From: Candidatus Aminicenantes bacterium
Lineage (GTDB): Bacteria > Acidobacteriota > Aminicenantia > Aminicenantales > UBA4085
Length of the DNA stretch: 56,238 nt
Assembly (NCBI GenBank): GCA_016931595.1
Contig: JAFGEN010000136.1
Location: 1 to 56,238 of the forward strand
Direction: 5' to 3'
The notes under the pieces were generated by a model, which saw nothing but the letters and a program-made list of their open reading frames with translations, ran no database searches and was not told the DNA's origin. Both the position numbers and the translations under genes were made by a program. Below, piece by piece: positions 3,737-33,489 of this stretch (position 1 is the first letter of the stretch; each line of letters begins with the position of its first letter).

Positions 3737-3764
3737 TGTGATTGTTTCCGGTAGTCCGGATCGT

Positions 3765-4571: not shown

Positions 4572-4604
4572 TTTAAAATGCAACCTAAATAATTGACACA
4601 GACA

Positions 4605-4620
4605 TGTCGGCCGGCCGACA
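4605..4620. promoter_or_regulatory. Perfect 16-bp palindrome TGTCGGCCGGCCGACA upstream of parA (candidate operator or parS-like site)
   Basis: I read the sequence directly and checked it by reverse complement. It lies 34-49 nt upstream of the parA ATG as a GC-rich block inside an AT-rich spacer. It has the same length and TGT...ACA ends as the canonical parS TGTTNCACGTGAAACA, but a different core. Confidence 0.35.
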
Positions 4621-6436: not shown

Positions 6437-6437
6437 C

Positions 6438-8905: not shown

Positions 8906-10374
8906 TTGCCGGCCTTCGCCCCAAGTTTGACCTTCTCTCCCCCGCTCTGGTCGACCGCATTCTGGACGAGGCCTATTCGATCCTGGAACGGACCGGTGTT
9001 TTCTTTGAAAATCCCGAAGCCCGCTCCCTGTTCCGGGAGGCGGGCCAGGAGGCCGACGAAAAAACCCAGAGGGTCAGGCTCAGTCCCCGCCTGGTCGACC
9101 GATGCCTGGCCACGACTCCGGCGGCCTTCGACCTGTTCGACCGGCAGGGGGATATCTCCTGGCGCATTGGAGGCGATGAAGTCCATTTCGACCCCGGCTC
9201 ATCCGGAACCCGGATTCTCGACCATATAACCGGGAGGGAACGCAAACCCCTAACGGCAGACCTGGTTTCCATCGCCCGGCTAACGGACGCCCTGACCCAT
9301 CTTCATTTCCAGAGCACGGCTCTCGTGCCCTTCGATGTGCCCGGAGAGATCGCCGACGATTATCGCTTGTACCTCGCTCTCCTCTTCAGCGCCAAACCGG
9401 TCGTGACCGGAACGTTCCGCATCGCCGGCTTCGGGCCCATGAGAGACATGCTGGCCGCCGTCCGCGGCGGAGCCGAAAACCTGCGGGCCAAGCCTTTGGC
9501 CATTTTCGACGCCTGTCCTTCGCCGCCGCTTCGATGGAGCCGCCTGACGTCACAGAGCCTCATCGATTGCGCCCGGGCCGGGATTCCGTCCGAATTGATC
9601 TCAATGGGCATGACCGGGGCGACCTCTCCGGCGACAATCACCGGGACGCTGGTCCAGCATGTCGTCGAAAATCTGGCCGGCTTGTGCCTGGCCCAGATCG
9701 CCCGTCCCGGCGCTCCGGTGATTTTCGGCGGTTCACCCTCGAGCTTCGACATGCGCCGGGGAACGTGTCCGATGGGAGCGATGGAGACGATGATGATCGA
9801 CTGCGCTTACGCCCAGCTCGGCAAGCGCCTTCGCCTGCCGACCCATGCCTACATGGCCCTCAGCGATGCCAAGACCAACGACGCCCAAGCCGGGTTCGAG
9901 ACGGGGATCGGGGCGGTGCTGGCCGCCCTGGCCGGGATCAACGTCGTTTCAGGTCCGGGGATGATGGATTATGAGAGCACCATCAGCTTGGAGAAAATGG
10001 TGATCGACGATGAAATCTGCGCCCTGGCCTATCGGCTGATTTCCGGGATCGTTCCACGCGAGGACTCCTTGGCGGAACATCTATTCGAAGACTTTGGGCC
10101 GGAGACGGATTTCCTGAAGTCCGCCCATACCCGGAAATGGTACCGGGCCGAGCATCTTCTGCCCATCGTCGCCGACCGGGATCCTTACGATGCCTGGGAA
10201 GCCAAGGGAGGCCGGTCGATCGCCGACCGGGCCTCCGATCGGGTCAACGACCTGCTGGCGAAAAACACGCCGCCGCTTCCCGACCCGGCCTTAACCGATG
10301 AACTGAGACGAATCATGGCAGCCGACGCGGGGGCCAATGGGGTAACGGATTTGCCGGCCCTTCCTGTTTTTTAG
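8902..10374 (+). CDS. MttB-superfamily methyltransferase, non-pyrrolysine type (quaternary amine:corrinoid methyltransferase candidate)
   Basis: The N-terminus (LSPALVDRILDEAYSILERTGVFFENPEA) and the 490-aa length are typical of the trimethylamine methyltransferase family. There is no in-frame TAG. The GTG at 8902 overlaps the upstream TGA (GTGA). Confidence 0.8.
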   Translation: MIAGLRPKFDLLSPALVDRILDEAYSILERTGVFFENPEARSLFREAGQEADEKTQRVRLSPRLVDRCLATTPAAFDLFDRQGDISWRIGGDEVHFDPGSSGTRILDHITGRERKPLTADLVSIARLTDALTHLHFQSTALVPFDVPGEIADDYRLYLALLFSAKPVVTGTFRIAGFGPMRDMLAAVRGGAENLRAKPLAIFDACPSPPLRWSRLTSQSLIDCARAGIPSELISMGMTGATSPATITGTLVQHVVENLAGLCLAQIARPGAPVIFGGSPSSFDMRRGTCPMGAMETMMIDCAYAQLGKRLRLPTHAYMALSDAKTNDAQAGFETGIGAVLAALAGINVVSGPGMMDYESTISLEKMVIDDEICALAYRLISGIVPREDSLAEHLFEDFGPETDFLKSAHTRKWYRAEHLLPIVADRDPYDAWEAKGGRSIADRASDRVNDLLAKNTPPLPDPALTDELRRIMAADAGANGVTDLPALPVF

Positions 10375-21705: not shown

Positions 21706-23886
21706 TCACCAGTAATTGGCGAAATCGCCGCTTTTGACCATGTTGGCGAAGTTGCCGTCCTTGACCAGGTTGGCGAAATTGGCGTCCTTCATGAGATTGG
21801 AGAAAGAGCCGTCCTTCATCAAGTTGGCGAAGTTGCCGTCCTTGACCAGGTTGGCGAAATTGCCGTCCTTCATCAGGTTGGTGAAGCTTCCGTCTTTGAG
21901 GAGGTTGGCAAAGCTTCCGTCTTTGACCAGGTTGGCGAAGTTGGCGTTATTGACCAGGCCGCGGAAGCTTTCGACCTTGACCAGGTTGGCGAAATTCCCG
22001 CCATTCACGAGGAGGATGAGGTTGGCGAATCCCCCGTTTTTCACCATGTTGGCCAGGCTGCCGTTCTTCATCAGGTTGGCGAAATTGGCGTCTTTCATCA
22101 GATTGGCGAAGGACGGGTCTTTGACCAGGTTGGCCAGCCCGGGGTCCTTTGTCAGGTTGGCGAAGTTCGCATTTTTTTGCAGATTGGCGAAATCCCCGTT
22201 CTTGACCGCGTTGGCGAAGTTTGAGTCTTTGGCCAAGTTGGCGAAGTTGGGATCCTTGACCAGGTTGGAAAAATTCGGATCTTTGACCAGGTTGGCGAAG
22301 GCGTCGTTTTTCAACAGGTTGGTGAAGCCCGAGTCTTTCGTCAAATTGGCGAAATCCCCGTTGTTCACGAGCCAGACGCAGTTGGCGAATCCGCCGCTTT
22401 TGAACAGGTTGGAGAAAGAATCGGATTTAAAGAGATTGGCGAAGTTTGAGTCCTTCATCAAGTTGGCGAAAGCCGGATCCTTGACCAGATTGGCGTAATT
22501 CGGATTGTTCTCGAGATTGGCGAAATCTCCGCCCTTGACCGCGTTGGCGAACGAAGGATCCTTGGCCAGGTTGGCGAAGCCGGGATCCTTCATCAAGTTG
22601 GCGAAATTGGCGTCATTGAGGAGATTGGAGAAATTCCCGTCTTTCAACAAATTGGCGAAGTCGGCATCCTTGAAGAGATTCGCGAAGTTGCCGTTTTTGA
22701 CCAGGCTGGCGAAGTTCCCGTCCTTGACCAGGTTGGCGAAGTTCCCGTCCTTCATCAGGTTGGCGAAATTTCCATCCTGAATGAGAGGAATAAAATTCGC
22801 GCTCGGCCCGCCTTTCGTCAGATTTGCGAAATTTTCGTCCTTCACGAGGTTTGCGAAGGATGGATCCTTGACCAGGTTGGCGAAATCGGGCGTTTTGGCC
22901 CACCAGATGATGCTATTGGCGTACTCTCCGCTCTTGAAGAGATTGGCGAAATTCGCATCCTTCATGATGTTGGCGAACTCCGGCTTCGAGAAGAGATTCG
23001 CGAAGTCGCCGTTCTTGACCAGGTTGGCGTAATTCGGGTTGTTCTGGAGATTGGCGAAGTCGCCGTTCTTGACCGCATTGGCGAAGGCCGGGCCTTTGAC
23101 CAGATTGGCGAAGCTTGGATCTTTGACCAGGTTGGCGAAGGAGGGATCCTTGGCCAGGTTGGCGAAATCGCCGTTCTTCACCAATTCGATGATGACATTC
23201 GCCTGCGGACCGCTTTTGAGGAAAGCGGCGAAATTCTCGTTTTTGATCAAATTCGCGAAGCCGGCGTCATTGAAGAGATTGGCGAAATCGCCGTTTTTCA
23301 ACAGGTTCGCGAAATTCCCGTTTTTCACCAGGTTGGCAAAATTCGGGTCGTTCATCAGATTGGCGAACTCGGGCCGCAGGCAGGCATTGGAGAAATTCCC
23401 GCCCTGGATCAGGTTGGCGAAGTCCGGGTCCTTCATCAGGTTGGCAAAGCCTTCGTCCTTCACCAGGTTGGCGAATTCGGGCCGCAGCAGGAAATTGGCG
23501 AAGTCGCCGCTCTTGACCAGATTGGCCATCGACCCGTCCTTGAACAGCCCGGCGAAGTGTTCGTCCTTTACCAGGTTGGCGAAGTCCCCGTTCTTCAGCA
23601 AATTGGCGAAGTTCGGGTCCTCCATGGCCTTCTGGAAGCGGACGTTCCGGATCATATTCTGGACGTTCGGATCCTGGAGGATCCGGACGACATCCTCCTT
23701 GGTCAGGACCACATCCTTGGCCGTGACTCCACCGGCCCGGTGCCGGTCGGCCTTGGTAATGGTCCCGGCGACCTGGCCCTCGTCGGCCTTCTTCTTCAAT
23801 ACGCCGGGATTGAAAACAAACACCAGGCCGACGGCGATGACGACGATCGCCGCTCCGAACGAGAACATCTTCTGTTTTTGGGTCAT
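21706..23886 (-). CDS. Membrane-anchored nonapeptide-repeat protein (about 71 x D-[GP]-[NS]-F-A-N-L-[VM]-K); family unknown
   Basis: An uninterrupted 726-aa ORF starts at ATG 23886, preceded by GGGAGG. The N-terminus has one hydrophobic helix (FSFGAAIVVIAVGLVFVF). The remainder parses completely into 9-aa units. The opposite strand is broken into four ORFs. Confidence 0.85.
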   Translation of the reverse strand: MTQKQKMFSFGAAIVVIAVGLVFVFNPGVLKKKADEGQVAGTITKADRHRAGGVTAKDVVLTKEDVVRILQDPNVQNMIRNVRFQKAMEDPNFANLLKNGDFANLVKDEHFAGLFKDGSMANLVKSGDFANFLLRPEFANLVKDEGFANLMKDPDFANLIQGGNFSNACLRPEFANLMNDPNFANLVKNGNFANLLKNGDFANLFNDAGFANLIKNENFAAFLKSGPQANVIIELVKNGDFANLAKDPSFANLVKDPSFANLVKGPAFANAVKNGDFANLQNNPNYANLVKNGDFANLFSKPEFANIMKDANFANLFKSGEYANSIIWWAKTPDFANLVKDPSFANLVKDENFANLTKGGPSANFIPLIQDGNFANLMKDGNFANLVKDGNFASLVKNGNFANLFKDADFANLLKDGNFSNLLNDANFANLMKDPGFANLAKDPSFANAVKGGDFANLENNPNYANLVKDPAFANLMKDSNFANLFKSDSFSNLFKSGGFANCVWLVNNGDFANLTKDSGFTNLLKNDAFANLVKDPNFSNLVKDPNFANLAKDSNFANAVKNGDFANLQKNANFANLTKDPGLANLVKDPSFANLMKDANFANLMKNGSLANMVKNGGFANLILLVNGGNFANLVKVESFRGLVNNANFANLVKDGSFANLLKDGSFTNLMKDGNFANLVKDGNFANLMKDGSFSNLMKDANFANLVKDGNFANMVKSGDFANYW
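21709..23673 (-). repeat. Degenerate 27-bp tandem repeat array (about 71 units) encoding the nonapeptide repeats
   Basis: The period is visible directly, with units such as caggttggcgaaattgccgtccttcat and close variants. Identical 40-mers occur at 21742-21781 and 21823-21862, 81 nt (3 units) apart. Confidence 0.9.
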
Positions 23887-23917: not shown

Positions 23918-24727
23918 TTATTTCTTTCCTTCGTTCATGCCGATTTGATGCTCTTTTCGGACCGGCCAGGCAAATGACCGGGAAAACAGCATTTCGCCGT
24001 CCGCGTTGGCCTGGACATCGAGGGCGGTCGGCGGATGACCCGGCGTCCGGAAGACGACGAGAAAGCCGTGAGAACCCGACACCCGCACGACGATTTTTCC
24101 GGGCATGATCTCGACGCCGCCGGTTTCGCCCGAAAGACGGCGTATGGTGTCGAACCGCATCTCCTCCGGGGAGAAACTCAGAGTGACGAGGACCTCCCTC
24201 TCCGTCAGGCCGCGCAGGCCGACGGCCAGCATGCGCTCGCCCCGGAGGACATCCACTGTTTGCTCGATTCCGGTCGACTCCCAGCCGGCCGTTTCCATAG
24301 GACTCAAGCTTTCGGCGTCCATGACGGTCCCGGCCAACTGACGGAGGTCCCATCCGGAATCCTTGACCACTCCGAACTTCGAAACCAGGAGAAGCCCCAG
24401 GCCCAGACCCAGGCCAAGGCAGAAAAACAGCGCATACTTCAACTTGATGGGTTCAAACAGGGGAGCCGGGATCCCCCTCTTTTTGACGAAATCGTTCTCG
24501 GGAATCCCCGGGCGCTGGAGAAAGGCCAGAATTTTCATCTTGAAAAACGGTCCGGGATCCGGGACGGGAGCGGTCCGCAGGAGTTCGATCGTTTCCGAGA
24601 GCTCGGCCGTATAGGTCTTGGCTTCGTTGTTACCGGCGAGGATTCGGGCCAAGGTTCGGCTTTCTTCGGCCGAATTGGTCCCATCCGATTCTTGGTTGAT
24701 CAGGCGGATGATTTCGGCCTCAAGCAT
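23918..24727 (-). CDS. Single-pass anti-sigma factor-like membrane protein
   Basis: The start overlaps the ECF sigma stop by 8 nt. The N-terminal roughly 50 aa resemble an anti-sigma domain (IIRLINQESDGTNSAEESRTLARIL) but lack the HxxxCxxC zinc motif. There is one TM helix (ALFFCLGLGLGLGLLLV) and an extracytoplasmic domain of about 150 aa. Confidence 0.6.
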   Translation of the reverse strand: MLEAEIIRLINQESDGTNSAEESRTLARILAGNNEAKTYTAELSETIELLRTAPVPDPGPFFKMKILAFLQRPGIPENDFVKKRGIPAPLFEPIKLKYALFFCLGLGLGLGLLLVSKFGVVKDSGWDLRQLAGTVMDAESLSPMETAGWESTGIEQTVDVLRGERMLAVGLRGLTEREVLVTLSFSPEEMRFDTIRRLSGETGGVEIMPGKIVVRVSGSHGFLVVFRTPGHPPTALDVQANADGEMLFSRSFAWPVRKEHQIGMNEGKK

Positions 24728-25265
24728 GGCGGAGTCCCCCGTCGCGGACGAGGATTTCCCTCAGCCGGTGTCGGGCTTCGAAAAGGCGGGATTTCACCTT
24801 GTGTTCCGGCATACCGAGCAGCTCCCCGATTTCCTTGTAGCTGAGCCCGTCAATACTCAAGGCGAGGAGAGCGCGCCGCCGGGGATGCAAGGACTCCATG
24901 GCCCGATTGATCCGGGCGTTCAATTCGCCGATCTCGCACAGGTCTTCGGGGTCGAGGACGGCGCTTTCCAAAACGGGCGGAGGAACACTCCGACGGTTCC
25001 TCTTTTCGACGAAATTCAGCGATTCGTTGACTGCGATCCGGTACAGCCAGCTGAAAAATTTGTGTCCGGGATCGTATGAAGACAGGCGGCTGAAGGCTTT
25101 GATGAAAACACCCTGGGCCACATCCCGGGCGTCCTCGGCGTTGCGTACGATACGGTAGGCCAAGCTCATCACCTGCTTCTGGTACCGGATAATGATCGAT
25201 TCAAAGGCGTCCACATCTCCCTCCAGGCAATCGCGGACGGCTTGAAGGTCTCCTTGTTCATACAT
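24720..25265 (-). CDS. ECF-type RNA polymerase sigma-70 family factor
   Basis: Region 2 (FESIIIRYQKQVMSLAYRIVRNAEDARDVAQGVFIKAF...FFSWLYRIAVNESLN) and region 4 (LSYKEIGELLGMPEHKVKSRLFEARHRLR) are both present. The internal ATG at 25265 gives a typical 181 aa. Confidence 0.9.
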   Translation of the reverse strand: MYEQGDLQAVRDCLEGDVDAFESIIIRYQKQVMSLAYRIVRNAEDARDVAQGVFIKAFSRLSSYDPGHKFFSWLYRIAVNESLNFVEKRNRRSVPPPVLESAVLDPEDLCEIGELNARINRAMESLHPRRRALLALSIDGLSYKEIGELLGMPEHKVKSRLFEARHRLREILVRDGGLRHA

Positions 25266-25414
25266 TATTACAGGCGATCGGCCCCGAAGTTGGATTTGGC
25301 CTGTTTTTGGCCCGTCGGGGGAATGACGAACGAACGAAGGAGGCAAGAATCCACACCGGGAAATCCTCCCTTCCTTCCCGGCCGGAAGGCTCTCTCCTCA
25401 TGGTTGATGCCCCG

Positions 25415-25444
25415 AATATACGTTGTCCCAAAGGCGAATGTCAA
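25415..25444 (-). promoter_or_regulatory. Candidate sigma-70-type promoter for the ECF operon (TTGACA-N18-TATATT)
   Basis: The minus-strand hexamers sit at 25439-25444 and 25415-25420. This is about 150 nt upstream of the sigma start. The match is by sequence only. Confidence 0.35.
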
Positions 25445-25479: not shown

Positions 25480-25508
25480 TTGAGAACATCGGGGAAATGA
25501 CATAGAAT
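25480..25508 (+). promoter_or_regulatory. Candidate sigma-70-type promoter for the PrsW-family gene (TTGAGA-N17-TAGAAT)
   Basis: Hexamers sit at 25480-25485 and 25503-25508. The -10 ends 14 nt before ATG 25523, which implies a very short leader. Confidence 0.3.
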
Positions 25509-25522
25509 GCATATCGCTTTTC

Positions 25523-26542
25523 ATGTGGATAACGATTGGACTAAAAATCCTGATCGGGTTTTTCCCGGTCTTGTTGTTTCTCCTGGCCTTGGTCTTCATG
25601 GACAGCTACAAACTGGTTCGGATGAAGGCGCTTCTTCCGGCCATCGCCGGCGGGGCGGCCGCAGCCGGGCTGAGCCTGCTTCTGAATTCCGGCCTGATCG
25701 GATTTTTCCAGGGGGATTTCGCTTTCTACTCCCGCTATGTCGCGCCCCTGGTCGAGGAATCGCTGAAAGCGGCCGTTCTGGTTTATTTTTTCCGGACCAA
25801 CCGGGTCGGTTTCCTGGTCGATGCGGCGATCCTGGGATTCGCGGCCGGGGCCGGATTCTCGATCGTCGAGAACATGCATTTTCTCAAGGCGGCCGTCGGG
25901 GCGGACATCGTCGTTTGGGCGGTTCGTGGCCTGGGAACGGCGATGATGCACGGCGGAACGACGGCTGTCTTCGCCTTCCTGACTAAGGCTCTCTCCGACC
26001 GGCGGACAAAGAATCATCCCTGGCCGGCCGCGGTCCCCGGCCTGGCCCTGGCCTTCACCGTTCATTCCGCCTTCAACCATTTTTTGCTGCCGCCTGTTGC
26101 GGCTGCGGCTGTGATGATGGCCGTGCTTCCCCTGGTGGCCGTCAATGTCTTCATCGCCGGCGAGCGGAGCACCCGGAAATGGCTGGAAATCGGCTTCGAT
26201 ACCGATGTCGAACTTCTCGGGTTGATCAACGCCGGCCGGTTTTCCACCAGTAAAATCGGCCGTTACGTTCTTTCCCTGAAGGACCGCTTTTCCGGGGAAG
26301 TCATGGCCGACCTATTCTGTCTCATCCGGATCCATTTGGAGTTATCCATCGGCGCCAAGGGGATTCTTCTGATGCGGGAAGCCGGCCTACCGGTCGTCCA
26401 GAACCCCGGGTTCCGGGAGAAATTCAGAGAGTTGGAATACCTTCAGAAAAGCGTCGGCCCCACGGGAATGATGGCCGTTTCACCCATCCTCCACCGCAGC
26501 CGCCGGGATTTATGGGGGTTGCACATGCTGGGAGGACAATAA
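25523..26542 (+). CDS. PrsW-family intramembrane metalloprotease with about 135-aa C-terminal cytoplasmic extension
   Basis: Polytopic N-terminal half carries EExxK (PLVEESLKAA), GFAAGAGFSIVEN, MMHGGTT and HxxxN (VHSAFNH) motifs in PrsW/CAAX-protease order. Confidence 0.72.
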   Translation: MWITIGLKILIGFFPVLLFLLALVFMDSYKLVRMKALLPAIAGGAAAAGLSLLLNSGLIGFFQGDFAFYSRYVAPLVEESLKAAVLVYFFRTNRVGFLVDAAILGFAAGAGFSIVENMHFLKAAVGADIVVWAVRGLGTAMMHGGTTAVFAFLTKALSDRRTKNHPWPAAVPGLALAFTVHSAFNHFLLPPVAAAAVMMAVLPLVAVNVFIAGERSTRKWLEIGFDTDVELLGLINAGRFSTSKIGRYVLSLKDRFSGEVMADLFCLIRIHLELSIGAKGILLMREAGLPVVQNPGFREKFRELEYLQKSVGPTGMMAVSPILHRSRRDLWGLHMLGGQ

Positions 26543-26549: not shown

Positions 26550-28112
26550 TCAGGACGTCAGGGCGTTCAAGGCCACGGCAACGATGGTGACATCATCGGG
26601 AGGGGGGGTGCCTCCGGCAAACACGCGGACGGCTTCCCGCATCCCCTCGACCATTTTTTGCGGGCTCGTTCCGAGACCGGAGTCGAGCGTCCGATTGATT
26701 CGGGATTCGGTGAATAGCTCCAGAGAGGCGTTGGTTGCCTCCGAAACGCCGTCTGAGAACAAAAAGACGGCTTCCCCCGGACGGAGGCGGCCGGTGGTTG
26801 TCGAGTAGCCGCATCCTTCCAGGATTCCGAGGAACGTCCCCGTCGGCCCGGGCAGCGTCCTGTAGAGTCCTGATCCATCCGAGACGAATGGGGGGGGGTG
26901 TCCGCCGTCCGCGTAGGCGATTTCCCCGGTCCGGAGGTTCAGGACCAGGAAAAAAACGGTCACGAACATCATCATCTCGTTATCCGGTATAAGGGCGGCG
27001 TTCAGGCGCCTTAAGACCTCTCCCGGGGAATGGCCGCGCATCGCCTCCGTCTTGAGAAGCGTTTTACAGATGGCCATGAACAGGGCGGCCGGAACTCCCT
27101 TGCCGGAAACGTCGCCGATGGCCACGCCGACGCGGTCGTCGTCGATGAGAAAAAAATCGTAAAAATCACCCCCGACCTCCTTGGCCGGCTCCATGAGGGC
27201 GAAAATCTCGAACTCCGGCCGGTTCGGGAACGGCGGGAAAACCCGGGGAAGCATCGCCGCCTGAATATCCCGGGCGATCCGCAACTCGCTTTGGATTCGC
27301 TCCTTGGCCTCCGTCTCAGCCTTGAGGTTTTCGATGAATCGCTGAACGCAAAGATGGACGATCTTGAAGGCCATGTCGGAGTCGCGGCTGAACAGGCGGG
27401 TGACCTCCTCCTTGTCGATCGAATAGACGACGCAATTCTCCTCGCAGAGGGCGGATGCGGTCCGGATGTGGAAGGGGGACAGAAGCCCCATTTCTCCGAT
27501 GACATCGCCGGTCCGGACGATCTTTTCGATTTCAGGAAGCCGGATCGAACCGGAGGCGATGTAGAACATTTTTCCGGCCGGGTCGCCCTTCTGGAAAAGG
27601 ACGCTTCCTTTCGCGTGGGTTTCCCTGGTCATTGTTTCGAGGGGAAATCCCGATTCGGACATCCCCTCCGCCGTCGGCCGGATGCGGGCGGCCGGGCCGC
27701 CGGGCCGGGGAACAAACACCAGGGTCAGGATGTTTTTCCCGCCTTCCCGCCGCCAAATCGTTTCCTCGGTCAGCTGGTCGATGAAATAAATTCCCAGGCC
27801 TCCGACCTTGCGCTCCTCGAGCCCGGACCGAAGGTCCGGAGCGGCCTTCGAACGGGGATCGAAGGGAACACCCCTGTCCTCGATGTCGATTTCGACCCGA
27901 CCGGCGACGGTCCCTGTGCGCCATCGGACCTCGATTTCCCCGGATGCTTGGGGGTAGGCGTGGTGAATGATATTGACGACGGCTTCCTCGACGGCCAGCT
28001 GGATTTCCTTGATTTGGAGCGGGGAAAAGCCGTCTTCACGGCCTCGGACCTCAACGAAATCGAGGTACTGTTCCAGGTATTCGAGACGGGCGGGCAAACG
28101 CAGCGGAAGCAT
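26550..28112 (-). CDS. Fusion protein: RsbW/SpoIIAB-like serine kinase (HATPase_c_2), cyclic-nucleotide-binding domain, and PP2C/SpoIIE phosphatase
   Basis: Kinase N-box (EEAVVNIIHHAY) and G-boxes (DRGVPFDP, GGLGIYFI). cNMP phosphate-binding cassette (GDVIGEMGLL...RTASA). SpoIIE motifs (EVGGDFYDF, GDVSGKGVPAALFMA, DGGH, FSDGVSE). ATG at 28112 is preceded by GGAGG. Confidence 0.85.
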   Translation of the reverse strand: MLPLRLPARLEYLEQYLDFVEVRGREDGFSPLQIKEIQLAVEEAVVNIIHHAYPQASGEIEVRWRTGTVAGRVEIDIEDRGVPFDPRSKAAPDLRSGLEERKVGGLGIYFIDQLTEETIWRREGGKNILTLVFVPRPGGPAARIRPTAEGMSESGFPLETMTRETHAKGSVLFQKGDPAGKMFYIASGSIRLPEIEKIVRTGDVIGEMGLLSPFHIRTASALCEENCVVYSIDKEEVTRLFSRDSDMAFKIVHLCVQRFIENLKAETEAKERIQSELRIARDIQAAMLPRVFPPFPNRPEFEIFALMEPAKEVGGDFYDFFLIDDDRVGVAIGDVSGKGVPAALFMAICKTLLKTEAMRGHSPGEVLRRLNAALIPDNEMMMFVTVFFLVLNLRTGEIAYADGGHPPPFVSDGSGLYRTLPGPTGTFLGILEGCGYSTTTGRLRPGEAVFLFSDGVSEATNASLELFTESRINRTLDSGLGTSPQKMVEGMREAVRVFAGGTPPPDDVTIVAVALNALTS

Positions 28113-28137
28113 CGGTGCCTCCCCTGTTTTCGGAGAC

Positions 28138-28470
28138 TCAGAACCGGCCGTGGGCCGACTCGACCGAATCCTCGACGGCAAAGACTGAGCCGAACCCGGA
28201 AATGGTGAACACTTCCTTGACGACATCCTTGACGCAGGCGATGACAACCTTGCCTTTCTTCGCCGAGAGCTTCTTGCCAAGGATCAGGAGGCTTCGGAGG
28301 CCGGCACTGCTGATGTACTCCAGCCCGGTGAAGTTCAAGATGAAATTCGCCTCCCCGGCGGACAACCACTCGTCGCATTTGCGGTCGAATTCCTGCGAGG
28401 AGACGGCGTCCATCCGGCCTTCCACGGCGACCACAAGACGCCCATTTTCGTTTTTTCCTTCGATTTTCAT
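28138..28470 (-). CDS. STAS-domain anti-sigma-factor antagonist
   Basis: 110 aa with a SpoIIAA/RsbV-like core (LNFTGLEYISSAGLRSLL) carrying a phosphorylatable Ser at the conserved position. It lies 25 nt upstream of the kinase-phosphatase fusion. Confidence 0.85.
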   Translation of the reverse strand: MKIEGKNENGRLVVAVEGRMDAVSSQEFDRKCDEWLSAGEANFILNFTGLEYISSAGLRSLLILGKKLSAKKGKVVIACVKDVVKEVFTISGFGSVFAVEDSVESAHGRF

Positions 28471-28538
28471 GTCCCTTCCTCGGGCCGAGATTATCGGGCG
28501 GCCGCGGATGTCCGTGCCCGGGCCGTCCCGCACGGATT

Positions 28539-30134
28539 CTATCTTCGGTTGGCGTCTTGTGTCAACATGACGTCCGCCGTCCTGATGCCTTTGCTGATGA
28601 GCCCCGTCCCCAGCGCCCTCTCCAGGTTGGCCAGCGAGAGCCGGTAGTCGATCATGGCTTTGAGTTCGGCGCTCTTGGCCCCGGCCAGGTCGCGTTGCTG
28701 CCAGAGAAACAGATAATTTGTCGTCAGCCCAACCTTGAGTTTTTTCTCCTCGGCTGCCAGCTTCCTTTCGGAGAGCTCCCGAGCTGCCCGGTAGGCCTGG
28801 ACCCGCCGATAGTCGGTTTCGAGCGTTTTCACCGCGCTCCGGATCTCCAGGAAAATCTGCTGCCGGGCATTCTCGACCTGGAGAAGGGCCTTATCGTAAC
28901 TCAGCCGGGCGGCGGCAAAATGCTCTTTAGTCAAATAGTTCGCCAAGGGGATGCTGAGGCTCAATCCGATCGAATAATTCTTGTAAAGGAAGCGGAACGC
29001 GTCGCGCAGCGACTCCGAGGCCCCCCCCGGAATCACCCCGGTGACAATGCCGCTAAGCGCGTTTCCGTCCTGATAGAGGATCTGGGTTCCAGACACTCCC
29101 GGGCTCCAATATTGCACGGACAGGCGCAGGTCGGGCAGGAGTTGATTGCGGGCATAATCATATTGGAGGGACTGGTTGGCCAGGTTCAACCGGTAGATCG
29201 CCAAATCCGGCCGGTGAGCCAGGGCCAGGGAGAGGCATTCCTCGAGAACCACGGCCCGGGCCTCGGCCGCCGGTTTTTCCAGGGGGATCACCCGGCCGAC
29301 CTTGAGGGCGCCCTCCCCCGCAGGGAAGTTGATGAGGGTGAGAAGACGGTCCTGCAGGAGAGACACCTGGTTTTCAGCGGCCAGGATGTCGGCCTCCCTG
29401 GTCGCCACTTCGGCCTCGGCGTTGAGGATCTCGATCGGGGCGATCGTTCCGACTTCGACTTCCCGGCGGTTCTTCGTCAGCAGATCCCGGGCCAGGTCGA
29501 GCGACTGGCGGTGGACATTGAGGGATTCAACGGCAAAGACCAGGCTCCAGTAAGCTGATTCGACCCGGTAGACCAGGTCGAGGAGGACGGATTCAAATTG
29601 AGTTTCTGAAATCTGGAGGTTGTTCCGGGCGATGACGATGCTCCGGCGGTTGAGCTCCAGGCCGAAGCCCCTGAGCAGGGGCTGGGAAAACGAGAACGAC
29701 AGGGTGCTGCCGAAGCGCGGGTTGATCGTCTGGAAGCTCCGATTGCTCTCGCTCCTGTAGGAAGAGACGGATGCGCTCAATTGCCCGCCCGTCGGCAACG
29801 GCTGGGTGATCGAAGCCGCATAGTTCTTGTCCAGGGAGGAAACGACGGCGGCCGCCTCGATATAGGAATAGGAGGCGGAGCTCGTATCCGCCGAACTGAA
29901 GCCGAAGCTGAGCGCAGGGACGAATTTCTCCTTGGCGAACCGATAGTTCATTTCGCTGAGCCGGGGATTGATCACTTCCACGGCCACCCCGAGGTTGTGT
30001 TTCAGGGCGGCCAGGATGCAGGAATCCAGGGTCATCGGAAGGTCCCTTTCCTGGCCGGCAATGGCGCCGGCTCGGGCCAGAGCCAGGATGATCCCGGCGG
30101 TCAAAACGAAACGTACGGCTGTTTGGAGCTTCAT
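28539..30134 (-). CDS. TolC-family outer membrane efflux protein
   Basis: Signal peptide (MKLQTAVRFVLTAGIILALARA), two-fold repeat of coiled-coil and beta segments, and a typical N-terminus (LTLDSCILAALKHNLGV). GGAGG RBS. Confidence 0.85.
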   Translation of the reverse strand: MKLQTAVRFVLTAGIILALARAGAIAGQERDLPMTLDSCILAALKHNLGVAVEVINPRLSEMNYRFAKEKFVPALSFGFSSADTSSASYSYIEAAAVVSSLDKNYAASITQPLPTGGQLSASVSSYRSESNRSFQTINPRFGSTLSFSFSQPLLRGFGLELNRRSIVIARNNLQISETQFESVLLDLVYRVESAYWSLVFAVESLNVHRQSLDLARDLLTKNRREVEVGTIAPIEILNAEAEVATREADILAAENQVSLLQDRLLTLINFPAGEGALKVGRVIPLEKPAAEARAVVLEECLSLALAHRPDLAIYRLNLANQSLQYDYARNQLLPDLRLSVQYWSPGVSGTQILYQDGNALSGIVTGVIPGGASESLRDAFRFLYKNYSIGLSLSIPLANYLTKEHFAAARLSYDKALLQVENARQQIFLEIRSAVKTLETDYRRVQAYRAARELSERKLAAEEKKLKVGLTTNYLFLWQQRDLAGAKSAELKAMIDYRLSLANLERALGTGLISKGIRTADVMLTQDANRR

Positions 30135-31446: not shown

Positions 31447-32847
31447 TCAAGTCAGTTCGAATTCATCTCCGTATCGAGGAACGACCGTCTTCCAGCCGTC
31501 TTTTTTCAGCTCTTCAGCAAGGCTGAGGGATGCACCCTCTTCTCCGTGGCAGAGGAAGAGCCGGCGGGGACGACGCTCGAAACCCCGAAGCCACCGCAGA
31601 AGCTCGTTCTTCCCGGCATGGGCGGAAAAGCCCCCGATCCGGACGATCCTGGCTCGGACCGGCAACGTTTCGCCCAGAATCCGAACTTCCTGTGCTCCGT
31701 CGAGGATGGTCCGGCCCAGGGTTCCCTGGGCTTGGAATCCGACAAACAGCACGGTTGTTTCCGGCCGGCCGATGGTCTGCTTCAAATGGTGCTTGATCCG
31801 GCCTCCGGTGACCATGCCCGACCCGGCCAGAATAACAGCCGGCCCGGCGACGGCGTTGATGGCTTTCGAGTCCGCGGCCGTCGGGGTCGGGCGAAGTCCG
31901 GGAAATTCGAACAGACGATGTCCCGACCGCAGGATCTTCCCGGCTTCCTCGTCCATGTAGGATGGATACCGGGTGAACACCTGGGTGACCTCGACGGCCA
32001 TCGGGCTGTCGAGAAACACCGGGATGTTCGGAATCCGTCCGGCCCGCCGCAGGATTCCGAGGATATAGAGGAGTTCCTGGGCCCGCTCCATGGCGAAAAC
32101 GGGAACGACGACCTTCCCTCCCCGTCCGGCGGTTTCTCCGATGATCCGGGCCAGGATCTCATCGACCGGGGCTTCGTCGTCGTGCTCCCTGTCGCCGTAG
32201 GTCGATTCCATGACGAGATAGTCGGTCCCGATGTGTCGAGCGGGGTCGCGGACCAGTGGGTTGTCGTACCGTCCGATGTCCCCGGAGAAGAGAATGCGGC
32301 GAACGTCAGACCCCTCCCCTGCTTCCACCTCGATCATGGCCGAGCCGAGAATATGACCGGCGTCGTGGAAGGTGACGGACGTCCGCCGGCCGACGGCGAT
32401 GCGTTTGCCATAAGCCACGGGCTCGAACAGAGGCAGCGATTCCTCGGCGTCGGCGATGGTGTAGAGCGGAATTTCCGGATGAGGCCCGGTGCGGCCCTCC
32501 TTGGCGTGCCGCTTTTTCTTAAAGGCCGCGTCCTCCTCCTGGATATGGGCGGAATCAAGGAGGATGATCCGGGCCAGCTCGACGGTGGGTGCCGTGGCCA
32601 GGATCCTGCCCTTGAAGCCGTCGGCCGCCAGACGCGGGATGTAGCCGCAATGGTCAAGATGGGCATGAGTCAGGAGAACGGCTTCGATGTCCCCCGGAGG
32701 GACCGGGAAGCGGTCCCAGTTTCGATGGAGGAGCGCCCGTTCCTGGTAGAGACCGCAATCGACCAAGAGAAGCCGGTCATCCGTTTCCAGGAGGAATTTA
32801 GAGCCCGTGACCTGCCGTGAGGCACCGAGGAATCGGATGTTCATCAT
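31447..32847 (-). CDS. Beta-CASP family metallo-beta-lactamase-fold ribonuclease
   Basis: HxHxDH motif (LTHAHLDHCG), ESTYGDREH, and C-terminal GFSAHAG...LCHGE. The start is at MMNIRFLG (32847). The 667-aa track ORF is an artefactual N-terminal extension. Confidence 0.85.
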   Translation of the reverse strand: MMNIRFLGASRQVTGSKFLLETDDRLLLVDCGLYQERALLHRNWDRFPVPPGDIEAVLLTHAHLDHCGYIPRLAADGFKGRILATAPTVELARIILLDSAHIQEEDAAFKKKRHAKEGRTGPHPEIPLYTIADAEESLPLFEPVAYGKRIAVGRRTSVTFHDAGHILGSAMIEVEAGEGSDVRRILFSGDIGRYDNPLVRDPARHIGTDYLVMESTYGDREHDDEAPVDEILARIIGETAGRGGKVVVPVFAMERAQELLYILGILRRAGRIPNIPVFLDSPMAVEVTQVFTRYPSYMDEEAGKILRSGHRLFEFPGLRPTPTAADSKAINAVAGPAVILAGSGMVTGGRIKHHLKQTIGRPETTVLFVGFQAQGTLGRTILDGAQEVRILGETLPVRARIVRIGGFSAHAGKNELLRWLRGFERRPRRLFLCHGEEGASLSLAEELKKDGWKTVVPRYGDEFELT

Positions 32848-32861
32848 GATGGACCTCAGCC

Positions 32862-33377
32862 TCACCGGGGACAAATCGAAGGATGTTTCTGGAGCGCGTC
32901 GTCCCAGCTTTTCAGCCGGGGGAAATACATGAAAAACAGGAACAGGGAAACGAAAAGGAGGATGTAGAAGTCGCGGTTGTATCCGGCCAGGAAGAATAAG
33001 GCCAGGCCGAGGAGAGCCGGCGTTTCGGCCAGGACCAGAACCACCGCGTTCATGCGGGACAGAACGGCCAGGGCGGCGTTCGGTTCGGCGGCCTCGGCCG
33101 CTTTCCTTGCCATCCGGTAGTGAACGAACCGAAGGATCAAGACGCAGACGACAGCCAGGCCGAAGACGGCATAACGGAGCACGGGTCGGGACCCCTCCGG
33201 GAGGGATTCGGATAAGACGCCGAGAAACGGGCGGAACCTGGACCGGACGAATTCCACCAAGGCAAGATAGAAGGCCAAGCCGGCGATCATCCCGGCCCCG
33301 ATGATCAAGGCGGTCCGGAAGGCGCGGCGGTAATCGGCGAGAAAATCGGGTGCGTTCAACCGGTTTAGAACGGTCAT
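32862..33377 (-). CDS. Hypothetical small membrane protein (about 4 TM helices)
   Basis: ATG start, four hydrophobic segments, and only 14 nt upstream of the beta-CASP gene on the same strand. No motif recognised. Confidence 0.5.
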   Translation of the reverse strand: MTVLNRLNAPDFLADYRRAFRTALIIGAGMIAGLAFYLALVEFVRSRFRPFLGVLSESLPEGSRPVLRYAVFGLAVVCVLILRFVHYRMARKAAEAAEPNAALAVLSRMNAVVLVLAETPALLGLALFFLAGYNRDFYILLFVSLFLFFMYFPRLKSWDDALQKHPSICPR

Positions 33378-33489
33378 TTCGGTCCTCTCTTTCCGGGCCG
33401 GGACGGCGGGATTTCCGTCCAGGTAGGGTCCATTTTATCACAAAACTCAAGGCCTGGGACGCGGATTTAACCGCGCCGCGGGCCGGGTC

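What the first reader, a model, noticed from the sequence alone, without database searches (positions are those of the whole stretch)
26550..28470. Partner-switching pair in which kinase and phosphatase are fused around a cyclic-nucleotide-binding domain, with no sigma factor nearby
What the sequence shows:
- A 110-aa STAS protein carries the conserved phosphorylatable Ser context (EYISSAGL).
- 25 nt downstream is a 520-aa protein containing, in order, an RsbW/SpoIIAB-type HATPase_c_2 kinase (N-box EEAVVNIIHH; G-boxes DRGVPFDP and GGLGIYF), a cNMP-binding domain with an intact phosphate-binding cassette (GEMGLL...RTASA), and a SpoIIE/PP2C phosphatase.

Established knowledge: RsbW-type kinases phosphorylate STAS antagonists and RsbU/SpoIIE-type PP2C phosphatases dephosphorylate them. 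These opposing activities are normally on separate polypeptides. Multidomain fusions do exist; as I recall, Mycobacterium tuberculosis Rv1364c is one, but with a different domain order and no cNMP domain.

Inference: cAMP or cGMP may toggle one polypeptide between phosphorylating and dephosphorylating its own STAS partner. The nearest same-strand neighbours are TolC and HlyD rather than a sigma factor, so the output may be non-transcriptional.
Basis: partly seen in the sequence, partly recalled or inferred. Interest (0 to 1): 0.7.

Follow-up and report, generated by a model that had tools for sequence, protein, structure and literature searches.

The report
cNMP-gated STAS kinase-phosphatase beside ECF sigma

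Summary
The sequence observation holds. A 110-aa STAS protein (28470..28138, minus strand) lies 25 nt upstream of a 520-aa protein (28112..26550). That protein contains an RsbW-type kinase, a cNMP-binding domain and a SpoIIE/RsbU-type PP2C. All catalytic and ligand-binding motifs are intact and invariant in 65 homologues.

The "no sigma factor nearby" claim is wrong. An ECF sigma gene lies 1.3 kb downstream, with a single-pass anti-sigma candidate and a PrsW-family protease. All 8 related Acidobacteriota-type loci keep the block fusion, PrsW, ECF sigma, anti-sigma, 9-residue-repeat protein and a ~980-aa secreted protein; seven also show STAS (the eighth is cut off). TolC and HlyD are upstream only in the window and its closest relative. 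STAS has its own conserved promoter.

The same gene families recur in more distant lineages, including Bacteroidales. There the kinase and STAS are separate genes, and where a phosphatase is encoded nearby it carries other sensors (GAF, dCache-HAMP).

The kinase-sensor-phosphatase order is already known from Vibrio fischeri SypE, which has a REC domain in the middle. This is therefore a new sensor variant of a known bifunctional switch.

The more novel lead is that an RsbUVW-type partner switch appears coupled to an ECF sigma/PrsW system. Function is inferred, not shown.

The parts
28138..28470 (-). STAS anti-sigma-antagonist-type protein, 110 aa. The predicted phospho-acceptor is Ser55 (EYIS-S55-AGL).
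   Evidence: Pfam STAS E 9e-20. TIGR00377 scores 76 bits against a cut-off of 53. In the phmmer alignment to B. subtilis SpoIIAA (1auz), query 'issagl' aligns with SpoIIAA 'mdssgl', so Ser55 pairs with the first Ser after the Asp. By my recollection of SpoIIAA numbering that residue is Ser58, the phosphorylated serine.
28536..28565 (-). Sigma-70-type promoter of the STAS-fusion operon (TTGACA-N18-TAGAAT). The -10 hexamer overlaps the TolC stop codon.
   Evidence: 11 of 12 consensus match. The same TTGACA...GATAGAAT element is conserved upstream of STAS in L081, L082, L085 and L086. L082, L085 and L086 have no TolC upstream.
26550..28112 (-). 520-aa fusion protein: RsbW-type Ser kinase, cNMP-binding domain, helical linker and SpoIIE/RsbU-type PP2C.
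27717..28097 (-). Kinase domain (residues 6-132). N-box is E42 E43 N47, G1 is D79xG81, G2 is G104-G105-L106-G107.
   Evidence: HATPase_c_2 E 1e-24. Best named matches are RsbW: NF003144 E 3e-14 and PDB 6m36 E 1e-8. E43, N47, D79, G81 and G104-G107 are invariant in 65 homologues, and E42 is conserved in at least 90%. Standalone ~135-aa kinases are 40-46% identical to it.
27381..27620 (-). cNMP-binding domain (residues 165-244) with phosphate-binding cassette G206-E207-M-G209...R217-T218-A219.
   Evidence: Pfam E 2e-14. It aligns to PKA-R, Epac, SthK and CRP, with G-E and Arg in register. G206, E207, G209 and R217 are invariant in 65 homologues.
27252..27380 (-). Predicted continuous 43-residue helix (residues 245-287) joining the cNMP C-helix to the PP2C domain. 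It is among the most conserved parts of the protein outside the catalytic cores (RFIENL...SELRIARDIQ).
   Evidence: The AF2 model shows helix H245-287. Invariant residues are R258, E261, N262 and S275-Q284.
26571..27143 (-). PP2C/PPM phosphatase domain (residues 324-514) with motifs GGD316xxD319, GD334VSGKG, D454G and D506D507.
   Evidence: SpoIIE E 5e-48. The motifs align with P. aeruginosa RssB and Rv1364c. Foldseek top hits are RssB 3f7a, Rv1364c 3ke6, SpoIIE 5ucg and SiaA 6k4e. The aspartates are invariant in 65 homologues.
25523..26542 (+). PrsW-family intramembrane protease homologue (339 aa), convergent with the fusion gene across a 7-nt gap. It has a conserved ~130-aa helical C-terminal extension that follows the last predicted TM helix.
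   Evidence: Pfam PrsW-protease E 4e-17 over residues 37-206. Present next to the fusion gene in 8 of 8 clade loci. AF2 model has pLDDT 86.
25480..25508 (+). Sigma-70-type promoter of the PrsW gene (TTGAGA-N17-TAGAAT).
   Evidence: the position is conserved in 6 loci.
25415..25444 (-). Sigma-70-type promoter upstream of the ECF sigma gene (TTGACA-N18-TATATT), giving a leader of about 150 nt.
   Evidence: conserved in 6 loci.
25268..25291 (-). Conserved element CCAACTT-N14-TGTAAT abutting the ECF start codon, with no Shine-Dalgarno sequence. It is a possible ECF-type autoregulatory promoter.
   Evidence: Conserved in 6 loci. It occurs once in the window. Its function was not tested.
24720..25265 (-). 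ECF sigma factor (181 aa from Met28 of the long ORF), RpoE/SigW-like.
   Evidence: Pfam Sigma70_r2 and r4_2. TIGR02937 scores 101 bits against a cut-off of 43; the best named models are RpoE and SigW. Orthologues in related loci start at this Met.
23918..24727 (-). 269-aa candidate anti-sigma factor. It overlaps the sigma gene's stop and has one TM helix at residues 98-116.
   Evidence: It has no Pfam or NCBIfam match. Its N-terminal ~85 aa are conserved, and in L082, L085, L086 and L001 they are fused to the repeat protein. It is homologous to the gene that follows the ECF sigma gene in L173 and L033.
21706..23886 (-). 726-aa membrane-anchored protein made of about 59 nine-residue repeats (xFANLxKDx).
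   Evidence: Conserved in the cluster.
18575..21520 (-). ~981-aa secreted protein of unknown function. It has among the highest cross-lineage identities of the cluster's proteins.
   Evidence: It is 66-70% identical in the other intact clade loci (about 85% over the fragments in L081) and 37-54% identical in other lineages. It has no family match apart from a weak Omp85_2 hit at E 0.003.

Best explanation
The pair is a two-gene partner-switching module in which writer and eraser are one polypeptide.

Proposed mechanism (inferred from motifs, a structure model and precedent):
- The N-terminal RsbW-type kinase phosphorylates Ser55 of the STAS protein.
- The C-terminal PP2C removes that phosphate.
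- The kinase is joined by a flexible ~18-residue linker. The cNMP-binding domain runs into the PP2C through one long conserved helix.
- The regulated step is therefore most likely the phosphatase. cAMP or cGMP binding at the intact phosphate-binding cassette would move the C-helix and linker and switch the PP2C, while the tethered kinase acts constitutively.
- Cyclic-nucleotide level would thus set the fraction of unphosphorylated STAS.

Proposed output (inferred from conserved gene neighbourhood only):
- The output is the adjacent ECF sigma system, which consists of an ECF sigma, a single-pass anti-sigma candidate, a PrsW-type protease, a 9-residue-repeat membrane protein and a ~980-aa secreted protein.
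- Unphosphorylated STAS would relieve inhibition of the ECF sigma by one of three routes. It could titrate the kinase domain acting as a second, cytoplasmic anti-sigma (the classical partner switch). It could bind the cytoplasmic domain of the membrane anti-sigma, as HsbA binds FlgM. Or it could act on the C-terminal domain of PrsW.
- This would add a cytoplasmic second-messenger input to an envelope-signal proteolytic pathway.

TolC and HlyD are incidental neighbours.
For: Shown by tools:
- Domain matches are above curated thresholds.
- In 65 homologues the kinase N-box (E43, N47), G1 and G2 residues, the cassette residues G206, E207, G209 and R217, and the four PP2C aspartate motifs are invariant. 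Kinase E42 and cassette T218 and A219 are conserved in at least 90%.
- STAS Ser55 aligns with the SpoIIAA serine that I recall as phospho-Ser58.
- The kinase domain's best named matches are RsbW. The PP2C fold is closest to RssB, Rv1364c, SpoIIE and SiaA.
- In the AF2 model (pLDDT 81), residues 137-154 are disordered and a single helix spans 245-287 into the PP2C.

Context:
- All 8 clade loci (fusion 53-80% identical) keep fusion, PrsW, ECF, anti-sigma, repeat protein and the ~980-aa protein; STAS is seen in the seven loci that extend upstream. The STAS-side flank differs in nearly every locus.
- The same families recur with separate kinase and STAS genes and in different orders.
- L173 has GAF-SpoIIE, kinase, STAS, ECF, anti-sigma, repeat protein, the ~980-aa protein and PrsW.
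- L171 has STAS and kinase divergent from ECF, anti-sigma, repeat protein, the ~980-aa protein and PrsW.
- Bacteroidales L033 has dCache-HAMP-SpoIIE, kinase, STAS, PrsW, ECF, anti-sigma and the ~980-aa protein; L070 shows the same tblastn pattern (PP2C, kinase, STAS, PrsW, ECF, ~980-aa protein).
- STAS has its own conserved promoter.

Precedent:
- SypE has the kinase-REC-PP2C order and acts on SypA Ser56 (PMC3610818).
- HsbR's REC domain switches it between kinase and phosphatase action on HsbA, and HsbA binds the anti-sigma FlgM (PMC6482189).
- Coiled-coil linkers transmit sensor signals to RsbU-type PP2Cs (PMC12143880).
Against: - No biochemical data exist for any family member. Literature searches found no paper naming cNMP, SpoIIE and HATPase together.
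- The link from STAS to the ECF sigma rests on gene neighbourhood alone.
- The only element resembling an ECF-type promoter abuts the ECF sigma gene's own start codon. The STAS, PrsW, ECF and ~980-aa genes carry housekeeping-type promoters.
- RsbW-type proteins were stated in 2020 never to have been described interacting with ECFs or class I anti-sigma domains (PMC7406223).
- In Omnitrophota the same fusion sits in an operon with a second STAS gene, a GlgX-like debranching enzyme and DJ-1 genes, with no sigma factor. The module's output is therefore not fixed.
- No nucleotide cyclase is encoded in the window.
- The inter-domain arrangement in the AF2 model is uncertain (pTM 0.57).
- Whether cNMP turns the phosphatase on or off is unknown.
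Confidence: 0.55

Rival explanations
1. The STAS output acts on a target outside the cluster. This would be a self-contained cNMP-controlled STAS switch like SypE/SypA or HsbR/HsbA. Its target might be a sigma factor encoded elsewhere, or a non-transcriptional partner such as an enzyme, transporter or diguanylate cyclase. Adjacency to the ECF cluster would then reflect shared physiology or co-inheritance, not direct control.
For: - SypA acts post-transcriptionally on an unknown target (PMC3610818, PMC8256260).
- HsbA binds FlgM and HsbD, and CrsR and HsbR bind RpoS (PMC6482189); as I recall rpoS is encoded elsewhere in those genomes.
- Omnitrophota relatives sit with GlgX, GlcNAc-2-epimerase and DJ-1 genes and no sigma factor.
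- The cNMP-SpoIIE relative in L089 sits with a separate kinase, a STAS gene and ABC-transporter genes, one of which carries a STAS domain.
- The STAS, PrsW, ECF and ~980-aa genes in the window carry housekeeping-type promoters.
Against: The same set of gene families (kinase, STAS, ECF, anti-sigma, PrsW-long, ~980-aa protein, usually with a sensor PP2C) recurs in at least four lineages. Gene order, fusion state and sensor domains all differ between them. That pattern is hard to explain without functional coupling.
Confidence: 0.27
2. One reading: the pair regulates the neighbouring TolC/HlyD efflux or secretion system non-transcriptionally, because no sigma factor is present.
For: TolC-like and HlyD-like genes lie immediately upstream on the same strand, 68 nt from STAS. 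Bordetella BtrU/V/W offer a precedent for a partner switch controlling secretion (PMC8256260).
Against: - TolC and HlyD are upstream only in the window and its 79%-identical relative. The other five clade loci that extend upstream of STAS have unrelated upstream genes.
- STAS has its own conserved promoter, which overlaps the TolC stop codon.
- An ECF sigma gene is present and its linkage is conserved.
Confidence: 0.05
3. The protein is not truly bifunctional or not cNMP-regulated. One catalytic domain might serve only as a binding scaffold (an anti-sigma or docking domain), or the cNMP-type domain might bind a different ligand, as some CRP/FNR-family domains do.
For: - HsbR's kinase domain also serves as an anti-sigma binding domain (PMC6482189).
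- P. aeruginosa RssB, the closest solved PP2C, is annotated as a response regulator. As I recall it acts as an adaptor, which is my own knowledge.
- No cyclase gene is present in the window.
Against: All ATP-binding, metal-binding and phosphate-binding-cassette residues are invariant or nearly so across 65 homologues spanning 42-79% identity. That argues for retained catalysis and nucleotide binding.
Confidence: 0.1

Closest known systems
Vibrio fischeri SypE / SypA
   Same: One polypeptide has an N-terminal RsbW/HPK-like Ser kinase (~140 aa, with an essential Asn), a central sensor domain and a C-terminal PP2C. The substrate is a single-domain STAS protein phosphorylated on the conserved Ser (Ser56). 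The sensor domain decides which activity dominates (PMC3610818, PMC8256260).
   Different: SypE's central domain is a phospho-accepting receiver (REC), not a cNMP-binding domain. SypE lies in the syp polysaccharide locus, its output is post-transcriptional, and its target is unknown. No ECF sigma or PrsW cluster is involved. I could not measure sequence identity to SypE because the SypE sequence is not held by these tools.
Pseudomonas aeruginosa HsbR/HsbA and Shewanella CrsR/CrsA
   Same: A bifunctional PP2C plus RsbW-like kinase on one chain acts on a STAS partner. The sensor state switches the net activity. The STAS protein or kinase domain controls sigma factors: HsbA binds the anti-sigma FlgM, and the kinase domain binds RpoS (PMC6482189).
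   Different: The domain order is REC-PP2C-kinase, and the sensor is REC fed by a phosphorelay. The permuted relatives found here (cNMP-SpoIIE-kinase, e.g. P0094) share that order, but the window protein does not.
Mycobacterium tuberculosis Rv1364c
   Same: It fuses an RsbU-type PP2C and an RsbW-type kinase. Its PP2C domain is among the closest solved structures (3ke6).
   Different: The order is PAS-PP2C-kinase-STAS (PMC12143880). STAS is part of the same chain, and there is no cNMP domain.
Classical RsbU/RsbV/RsbW and SpoIIE/SpoIIAA/SpoIIAB partner switches
   Same: The same three protein families and the same phospho-Ser logic are present. Split three-gene versions of this very module exist next to the same ECF cluster in L173 and L033.
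   Different: In the classical systems the kinase and phosphatase are separate proteins and the target is a group-3 sigma (sigma-B or sigma-F) encoded in the operon. Here the only sigma factor in 56 kb is an ECF.
Bacillus subtilis SigW / RsiW / PrsW
   Same: An RpoE/SigW-like ECF sigma is followed by a co-transcribed single-pass membrane protein, and a PrsW-family protease gene is adjacent. That PrsW cleaves RsiW as the site-1 step is my own knowledge.
   Different: As I recall, B. subtilis PrsW is about 218 aa, whereas this PrsW carries an extra ~130-aa C-terminal domain. The cluster adds a 9-residue-repeat protein, a ~980-aa secreted protein and a partner-switching module. The anti-sigma candidate matches no curated anti-sigma model.
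Bordetella BtrS (ECF sigma) with BtrU/BtrV/BtrW
   Same: As I recall, an RsbU/V/W-type partner switch is encoded beside an ECF sigma gene in the same locus. The partner-switch proteins and their role in type III secretion are described in PMC8256260; the adjacency to btrS rests on my own knowledge.
   Different: The Btr proteins are separate polypeptides with no cNMP domain. They control type III secretion rather than, as far as is known, BtrS activity. No PrsW or ~980-aa protein is present.

Membership tests
RsbW/SpoIIAB-type HATPase_c_2 serine kinases (anti-sigma kinases) | Profile match to PF13581 above the curated threshold | tested here: met
   87.3 bits against a cut-off of 27.4, residues 6-132. 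The best named NCBIfam matches are RsbW and SpoIIAB. These fall below equivalog cut-offs, so this is not an RsbW orthologue.
RsbW/SpoIIAB-type HATPase_c_2 serine kinases (anti-sigma kinases) | ATP-binding N-box Asn/Glu and the G1 and G2 boxes | tested here: met
   E43, N47, D79xG81 and G104-G105-L106-G107 are invariant in 65 homologues; E42 is conserved in at least 90%.
RsbW/SpoIIAB-type HATPase_c_2 serine kinases (anti-sigma kinases) | Phosphorylates its STAS partner and binds a sigma factor | not testable with these tools
   This needs a kinase assay and binding assays or multimer modelling.
Single-domain STAS anti-sigma antagonists (SpoIIAA/RsbV) | Profile match plus a conserved phosphorylatable Ser in the D/S-S-x-G-L loop | tested here: met
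   PF01740 scores 70.9 bits against a cut-off of 22.6. TIGR00377 scores 76.1 against 53.45. Ser55 aligns with the SpoIIAA serine that I recall as phospho-Ser58.
SpoIIE/RsbU-type PPM (PP2C) phosphatases | Profile match, metal-binding aspartate motifs and the PPM fold | tested here: met
   PF07228 scores 163.9 bits. D316/D319, D334, D454 and D506/D507 are invariant and align with the same motifs in RssB and Rv1364c. Foldseek E values are 5e-15 to 1e-12 against RssB, Rv1364c, SpoIIE and SiaA.
Cyclic-nucleotide-binding (CAP/PKA-R-type) domains | Profile match with an intact phosphate-binding cassette (G-E ... R-[TSA]) | tested here: met
   PF00027 scores 53.6 bits against a cut-off of 27.5. G206-E207 and R217-T218 are in register with PKA-R and a cNMP-binding diguanylate cyclase domain and are conserved.
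Cyclic-nucleotide-binding (CAP/PKA-R-type) domains | Binds cAMP or cGMP; which one | not testable with these tools
   R-T-A-S is found in both cAMP-responsive and cGMP-responsive domains (my own knowledge). No cyclase gene is present in the window.
SypE-type bifunctional STAS kinase/phosphatase | Domain order of N-terminal Ser kinase, central sensor and C-terminal PP2C, with a single-domain STAS protein encoded close by | tested here: met
   STAS is immediately upstream of the fusion gene in every N-terminal-kinase family locus whose gene calls were read and that extends upstream. In the permuted Lentisphaerae locus L088, STAS lies 3 kb away.
SypE-type bifunctional STAS kinase/phosphatase | The central sensor is a receiver (REC) domain controlled by phosphotransfer | tested here: not met
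   The central domain is cNMP_binding, and no Response_reg match was found. The protein therefore works like SypE but is not a member of that response-regulator family.
HsbR/CrsR and Rv1364c architectures | PP2C precedes the kinase (REC-PP2C-kinase, or PAS-PP2C-kinase-STAS) | tested here: not met
   In the window protein the kinase is N-terminal. Only the permuted relatives P0094 and P0086 have the PP2C-kinase order.
PrsW-controlled ECF sigma systems (SigW/RsiW/PrsW-like) | ECF sigma, a co-transcribed membrane anti-sigma and a PrsW-family protease | tested here: inconclusive
   ECF sigma and PrsW-family membership are met. The 269-aa protein has the right position, a start that overlaps the sigma gene's stop codon and a single TM helix, but it matches no curated anti-sigma model. 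Cleavage by PrsW was not tested.

The most novel reading that the evidence does not exclude
An RsbU/RsbV/RsbW-type partner switch is a conserved cytoplasmic input to an ECF sigma factor that is also guarded by a membrane anti-sigma factor and a PrsW-type protease. In this window the switch is fused into one cNMP-sensing kinase-phosphatase plus STAS.

The cluster is found in Acidobacteriota-type MAGs, Bacteroidales and at least two further lineages. Its phosphatase sensors are interchangeable (cNMP, GAF, dCache-HAMP).

ECF control by STAS phosphorylation would be a regulatory mode absent from the text I could read. The main text of the 2021 ECF reclassification (PMC7826278) does not mention it. 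[quoted passage not shown]
Probability: 0.45. Interest if true: 0.75.

Novelty: new variant of a known kind. Interest (0 to 1): 0.6.

Why it matters
If the model holds, cAMP or cGMP would be read directly by a partner-switching enzyme. That would tie second-messenger signalling to Ser-phosphorylation-based sigma control in one polypeptide, in poorly studied uncultured phyla (Acidobacteriota/Aminicenantes-like, Omnitrophota).

More broadly, the conserved cluster suggests that ECF sigma factors can receive input from RsbUVW-type partner switches in addition to regulated proteolysis. That would be a two-input design that current ECF classifications do not list.

The system is small, with two soluble proteins. 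It is directly testable in vitro and could serve as a cNMP-responsive phospho-switch module.

Tried and rejected
1. Scans of genome contigs and metagenome contigs with the family alignment used PP2C motifs and returned mostly generic RsbU-type phosphatases. Only about 11 of the 160 loci were true family members. They were still useful, because L033 and L070 turned up the Bacteroidales cluster.
2. Full-text literature searches for the exact architecture (cNMP, SpoIIE, HATPase) gave 0 papers. Searches for ECF with PrsW and STAS found nothing relevant. The ECF reclassification paper has no held supplements.
3. I looked for an ECF-type promoter upstream of STAS, PrsW or the ~980-aa gene that would place them in the ECF regulon. 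Only housekeeping-type promoters were found. The AAC-N16-TGTAAT element occurs once, at the ECF gene itself.
4. I looked for a nucleotide cyclase or a group-3 sigma factor in the window. Neither is present.
5. An AF2 model of the PrsW homologue searched with Foldseek against the PDB gave no significant match for the C-terminal domain. There was only a weak APH-1-like similarity for the membrane part, with E above 0.1.
6. The ~980-aa protein has no PDB, Pfam or NCBIfam match beyond a weak Omp85_2 hit.
7. Complex modelling of STAS with the fusion, the sigma factor, the anti-sigma factor or PrsW was not possible, because only single chains can be predicted with these tools.
8. OsaC, which I recalled as kinase-PAS-GAF-PP2C, could not be verified. 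[quoted passage not shown]

Full report
**1. Observation**

All relevant genes are on the minus strand.
- The STAS gene is 28470..28138. It encodes 110 aa, starts with ATG and is preceded by GAGGAAGGG.
- The next gene starts 25 nt after the STAS stop. It runs 28112..26550, encodes 520 aa and is preceded by GGGGAGG.
- Pfam places HATPase_c_2 at residues 6-132 (E 1e-24), cNMP_binding at 165-244 (E 2e-14) and SpoIIE at 324-514 (E 5e-48). STAS scores E 9e-20.
- NCBIfam names the STAS protein an anti-sigma factor antagonist, above its cut-off. The kinase part's best named matches are RsbW and SpoIIAB. The phosphatase part's best named matches are RssB, SiaA and SpoIIE.
The coordinates and anatomy are therefore correct.

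**2. Integrity of the active sites**

I aligned 65 full-length homologues that are 42-79% identical to the window protein.
- Invariant kinase residues are E43, N47, D79xG81 and G104-G105-L106-G107. E42 is conserved in at least 90%.
- Invariant cassette residues are G206, E207, G209 and R217. T218 and A219 are conserved in at least 90% of sequences.
- Invariant PP2C residues are D316, D319, D334 (in GDVSGKG), D454-G455 and D506-D507.

Comparisons with solved structures agree with these assignments.
- The PP2C motifs align with the same motifs in P. aeruginosa RssB and in Rv1364c.
- The cassette aligns in register with PKA-R and with a cNMP-binding domain of a diguanylate cyclase.
- STAS Ser55 aligns with the first Ser of the SpoIIAA DSSGLG loop, which I recall as phospho-Ser58.

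An AF2 model built on the 65-sequence alignment has pLDDT 81.
- It shows three folded domains.
- Residues 137-154, between the kinase and the cNMP domain, form a low-confidence linker.
- One continuous helix spans residues 245-287 and runs from the cNMP domain into the PP2C.
- Foldseek places the PP2C nearest RssB, Rv1364c, SpoIIE and SiaA.

**3. How common is the architecture?**
- Among the 120 best clusters at 90% identity, by my count from the table 81 carry all three Pfam domains. Sources name them only 'SpoIIE family protein phosphatase' or 'RsbU/anti-sigma regulatory factor'. The named organisms are Acidobacteriota, Aminicenantes, Omnitrophota and Lentisphaerae.
- An exhaustive phmmer search with residues 1-270 covered 1.84 billion representatives of clusters at 50% identity. 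Only two full-length clusters (P0028, P0064) and one 255-aa protein have a contiguous kinase-cNMP arrangement.
- Two further clusters (P0094, P0086) are permuted, with the order cNMP-PP2C-kinase.
- Most of the other listed hits are standalone ~135-aa kinases, 36-49% identical to the N-terminal domain; the rest match the cNMP part.
- The family is therefore real, narrow in sequence space and, as far as the searchable literature shows, uncharacterised.

**4. Genomic context: the main correction**

Downstream of the fusion gene the window carries the following genes.
- A convergent PrsW-family protease gene (25523..26542, plus strand), separated from the fusion gene by 7 nt.
- An ECF sigma gene (25265..24720), most like RpoE and SigW.
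- An overlapping gene for a 269-aa protein with one TM helix at residues 98-116, which is the anti-sigma candidate.
- A gene for a 726-aa membrane-anchored protein made of about 59 nine-residue repeats.
- A gene for a ~981-aa secreted protein with no family match.

Conservation within the clade is complete.
- I examined relatives with the fusion protein 53-80% identical: L001, L081, L082, L084, L085, L086 and L091. Together with the window they make 8 loci.
- All 8 keep the block fusion, PrsW (opposite strand), ECF, anti-sigma, repeat protein and the ~980-aa protein. STAS sits directly upstream in the seven loci that extend that far; L001 is cut off within the fusion gene.
- TolC and HlyD are upstream only in the window and in L081, which is 79% identical. 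Elsewhere the upstream genes are unrelated: a Ser/Thr kinase, a GDSL lipase, an aldehyde oxidoreductase and a metallo-beta-lactamase.

The STAS-fusion pair is its own transcription unit.
- A sigma-70-type promoter (TTGACA-N18-TAGAAT, 28565..28536) precedes STAS.
- Its -10 hexamer overlaps the TolC stop codon.
- The same element is conserved in loci that lack TolC.

**5. The linkage extends beyond the clade**

I used the PrsW homologue, which carries a conserved ~130-aa C-terminal extension, to reach more distant loci.
- L173 has GAF-SpoIIE, HATPase_c_2 (134 aa), STAS (95 aa), ECF, a 266-aa protein, a repeat protein, a 979-aa protein and PrsW.
- L171 has STAS and HATPase_c_2 divergent from ECF, a 257-aa protein, a repeat protein, a 978-aa protein and PrsW.
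- tblastn and blastp support orthology. ECF is 42-46% identical, the large protein 48-54% and PrsW 49-53%. The anti-sigma candidate matches L173's 266-aa protein clearly (E 8e-13 to 8e-15) and L171's 257-aa protein only weakly (E 0.002). STAS keeps the YISSxGL motif.
- Among the PP2C-anchored loci from the earlier scans, two Bacteroidales contigs show the cluster again. L033, whose ORFs I scanned against Pfam, carries, all on one strand, dCache-HAMP-SpoIIE, HATPase_c_2, STAS, PrsW, ECF and an anti-sigma homologue, with a tblastn match to the ~980-aa protein further downstream. L070 shows the same order of tblastn matches (PP2C, kinase, STAS, PrsW, ECF, ~980-aa protein).

At least four lineages therefore keep the same gene families. 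Gene order, the fusion state of the kinase and the phosphatase's sensor domain all vary between them. This pattern is what selection for functional coupling would produce. The window protein is the version in which the kinase has been fused onto a cNMP-sensing PP2C.

Other contexts for the same module also exist.
- In Omnitrophota the operon is GlcNAc-2-epimerase, STAS, GlgX, STAS, fusion and DJ-1.
- In L089 a cNMP-SpoIIE protein sits with a separate kinase, a STAS gene and ABC-transporter genes.
- A permuted Lentisphaerae form has its STAS gene 3 kb away.
- The cNMP-controlled STAS switch is therefore portable, and its output is lineage-specific.

**6. Mechanism**

What the tools show is limited to intact motifs, conserved neighbourhoods and the predicted linker geometry. 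The rest is inference.
- The kinase phosphorylates STAS Ser55 and the PP2C reverses it.
- The cNMP domain is rigidly connected to the PP2C by a conserved helix, while the kinase is flexibly tethered. The phosphatase is therefore the likely regulated activity.
- This fits the coiled-coil-linker mechanism shown for RsbU and proposed for other sensor-PP2C proteins (PMC12143880).
- SypE has the same domain order and shows that a central sensor can bias such a protein between kinase and phosphatase modes (PMC3610818).
- The output in this clade is most likely the neighbouring ECF system. Three routes are possible: the kinase domain acting as a second anti-sigma; STAS binding the anti-sigma's cytoplasmic domain, for which HsbA-FlgM is a precedent with a non-kinase anti-sigma (PMC6482189); or action through PrsW's C-terminal domain.
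- I could not discriminate among these routes.

**7. Comparison with known systems and novelty**
- The closest functional analogue is SypE/SypA, followed by HsbR/HsbA and CrsR/CrsA, and then Rv1364c.
- The protein is not a member of the SypE response-regulator family, because it has no REC domain. It appears to work like SypE.
- PP2C proteins with cNMP domains have been noted in Myxococcales (PMC2887360). REC-PP2C-kinase fusions have been noted in Campylobacterota (PMC9239204).
- I found no description of a kinase-cNMP-PP2C protein.
- I also found no description of an RsbUVW-type switch coupled to an ECF sigma and PrsW cluster. The main text of the ECF reclassification never mentions STAS, RsbW, SpoIIE or PrsW. 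[quoted passage not shown]
- As I recall, Bordetella btrS and btrUVW are the nearest case of adjacency.

**8. Verdict**
- It is wrong on context, because TolC and HlyD are incidental and an ECF sigma cluster is conserved.
- The finding is a new variant of a known kind.
- It carries a more interesting, still unproven, lead: partner-switch input into an ECF sigma system.

Noticed in passing
window 21706..23886 (-): A 726-aa protein has an N-terminal TM helix followed by about 59 tandem nine-residue repeats (xFANLxKDx). In L082, L085, L086 and L001 it is fused to the N-terminal ~85 aa of the anti-sigma candidate. Counterparts elsewhere keep the 9-residue period with quite different repeat sequences: LLAKPEVTA in L173 and AFREALNSN in L171. 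All share an N-terminal AGTI...RYR motif.
   Followed up: partly
window 18575..21520 (-): A ~981-aa secreted protein is 66-70% identical in the other intact clade loci and 37-54% identical in other lineages, among the highest cross-lineage identities of the cluster's proteins. It has no Pfam, NCBIfam or PDB match except a weak Omp85_2 hit at residues 821-892 (E 0.003). It has its own conserved promoter and terminators on both sides.
   Followed up: partly
window 25523..26542 (+), residues 207-339: The PrsW-family protease carries a conserved, all-helical ~130-aa C-terminal domain that follows the last predicted TM helix. As I recall, this domain is absent from B. subtilis PrsW. The AF2 model is confident (pLDDT 86) but has no Foldseek match in the PDB. 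Full-length homologues about 50% identical are named Latescibacterota and Bacteroidota.
   Followed up: partly
window 25266..25295 (-): The element CCAACTT-N14-TGTAATTATG abuts the ECF start codon in all six loci compared, and no Shine-Dalgarno sequence is present. It has the geometry of an ECF-type promoter (AAC-N16-TGTAAT). If it is a promoter, the mRNA would be leaderless or nearly so. It occurs only once in the window.
   Followed up: partly
L083, L087, L090 (Omnitrophota relatives): The same fusion protein sits in a conserved operon: GlcNAc-2-epimerase, STAS, GlgX/isoamylase, STAS, fusion and DJ-1/PfpI. There are two STAS genes and no sigma factor. This suggests a metabolic, glycogen-related output in that phylum.
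   Followed up: no
L089 7256..9278 and L096: A split version exists. A cNMP-SpoIIE protein (425 aa) is divergent from a standalone HATPase_c_2 kinase and a STAS gene. These are followed by ABC-transporter genes, one of which encodes a 415-aa STAS-domain protein.
   Followed up: no
window 31447..33450 (-): The mechanical 667-aa ORF for the beta-CASP/RMMBL metallo-beta-lactamase-fold ribonuclease-like protein is probably over-extended at its 5' end. The orthologue in L081 is 465 aa, and a separate 171-aa membrane-protein ORF (32862..33377) occupies the upstream part.
   Followed up: no
window 2000..6000: A low-GC stretch (45-47% against about 60% elsewhere) carries ParA-like and ParB-like genes and an amino-acid permease. 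Further along are an MttB-family methyltransferase and a RACo-type activase (6381..10374).
   Followed up: no
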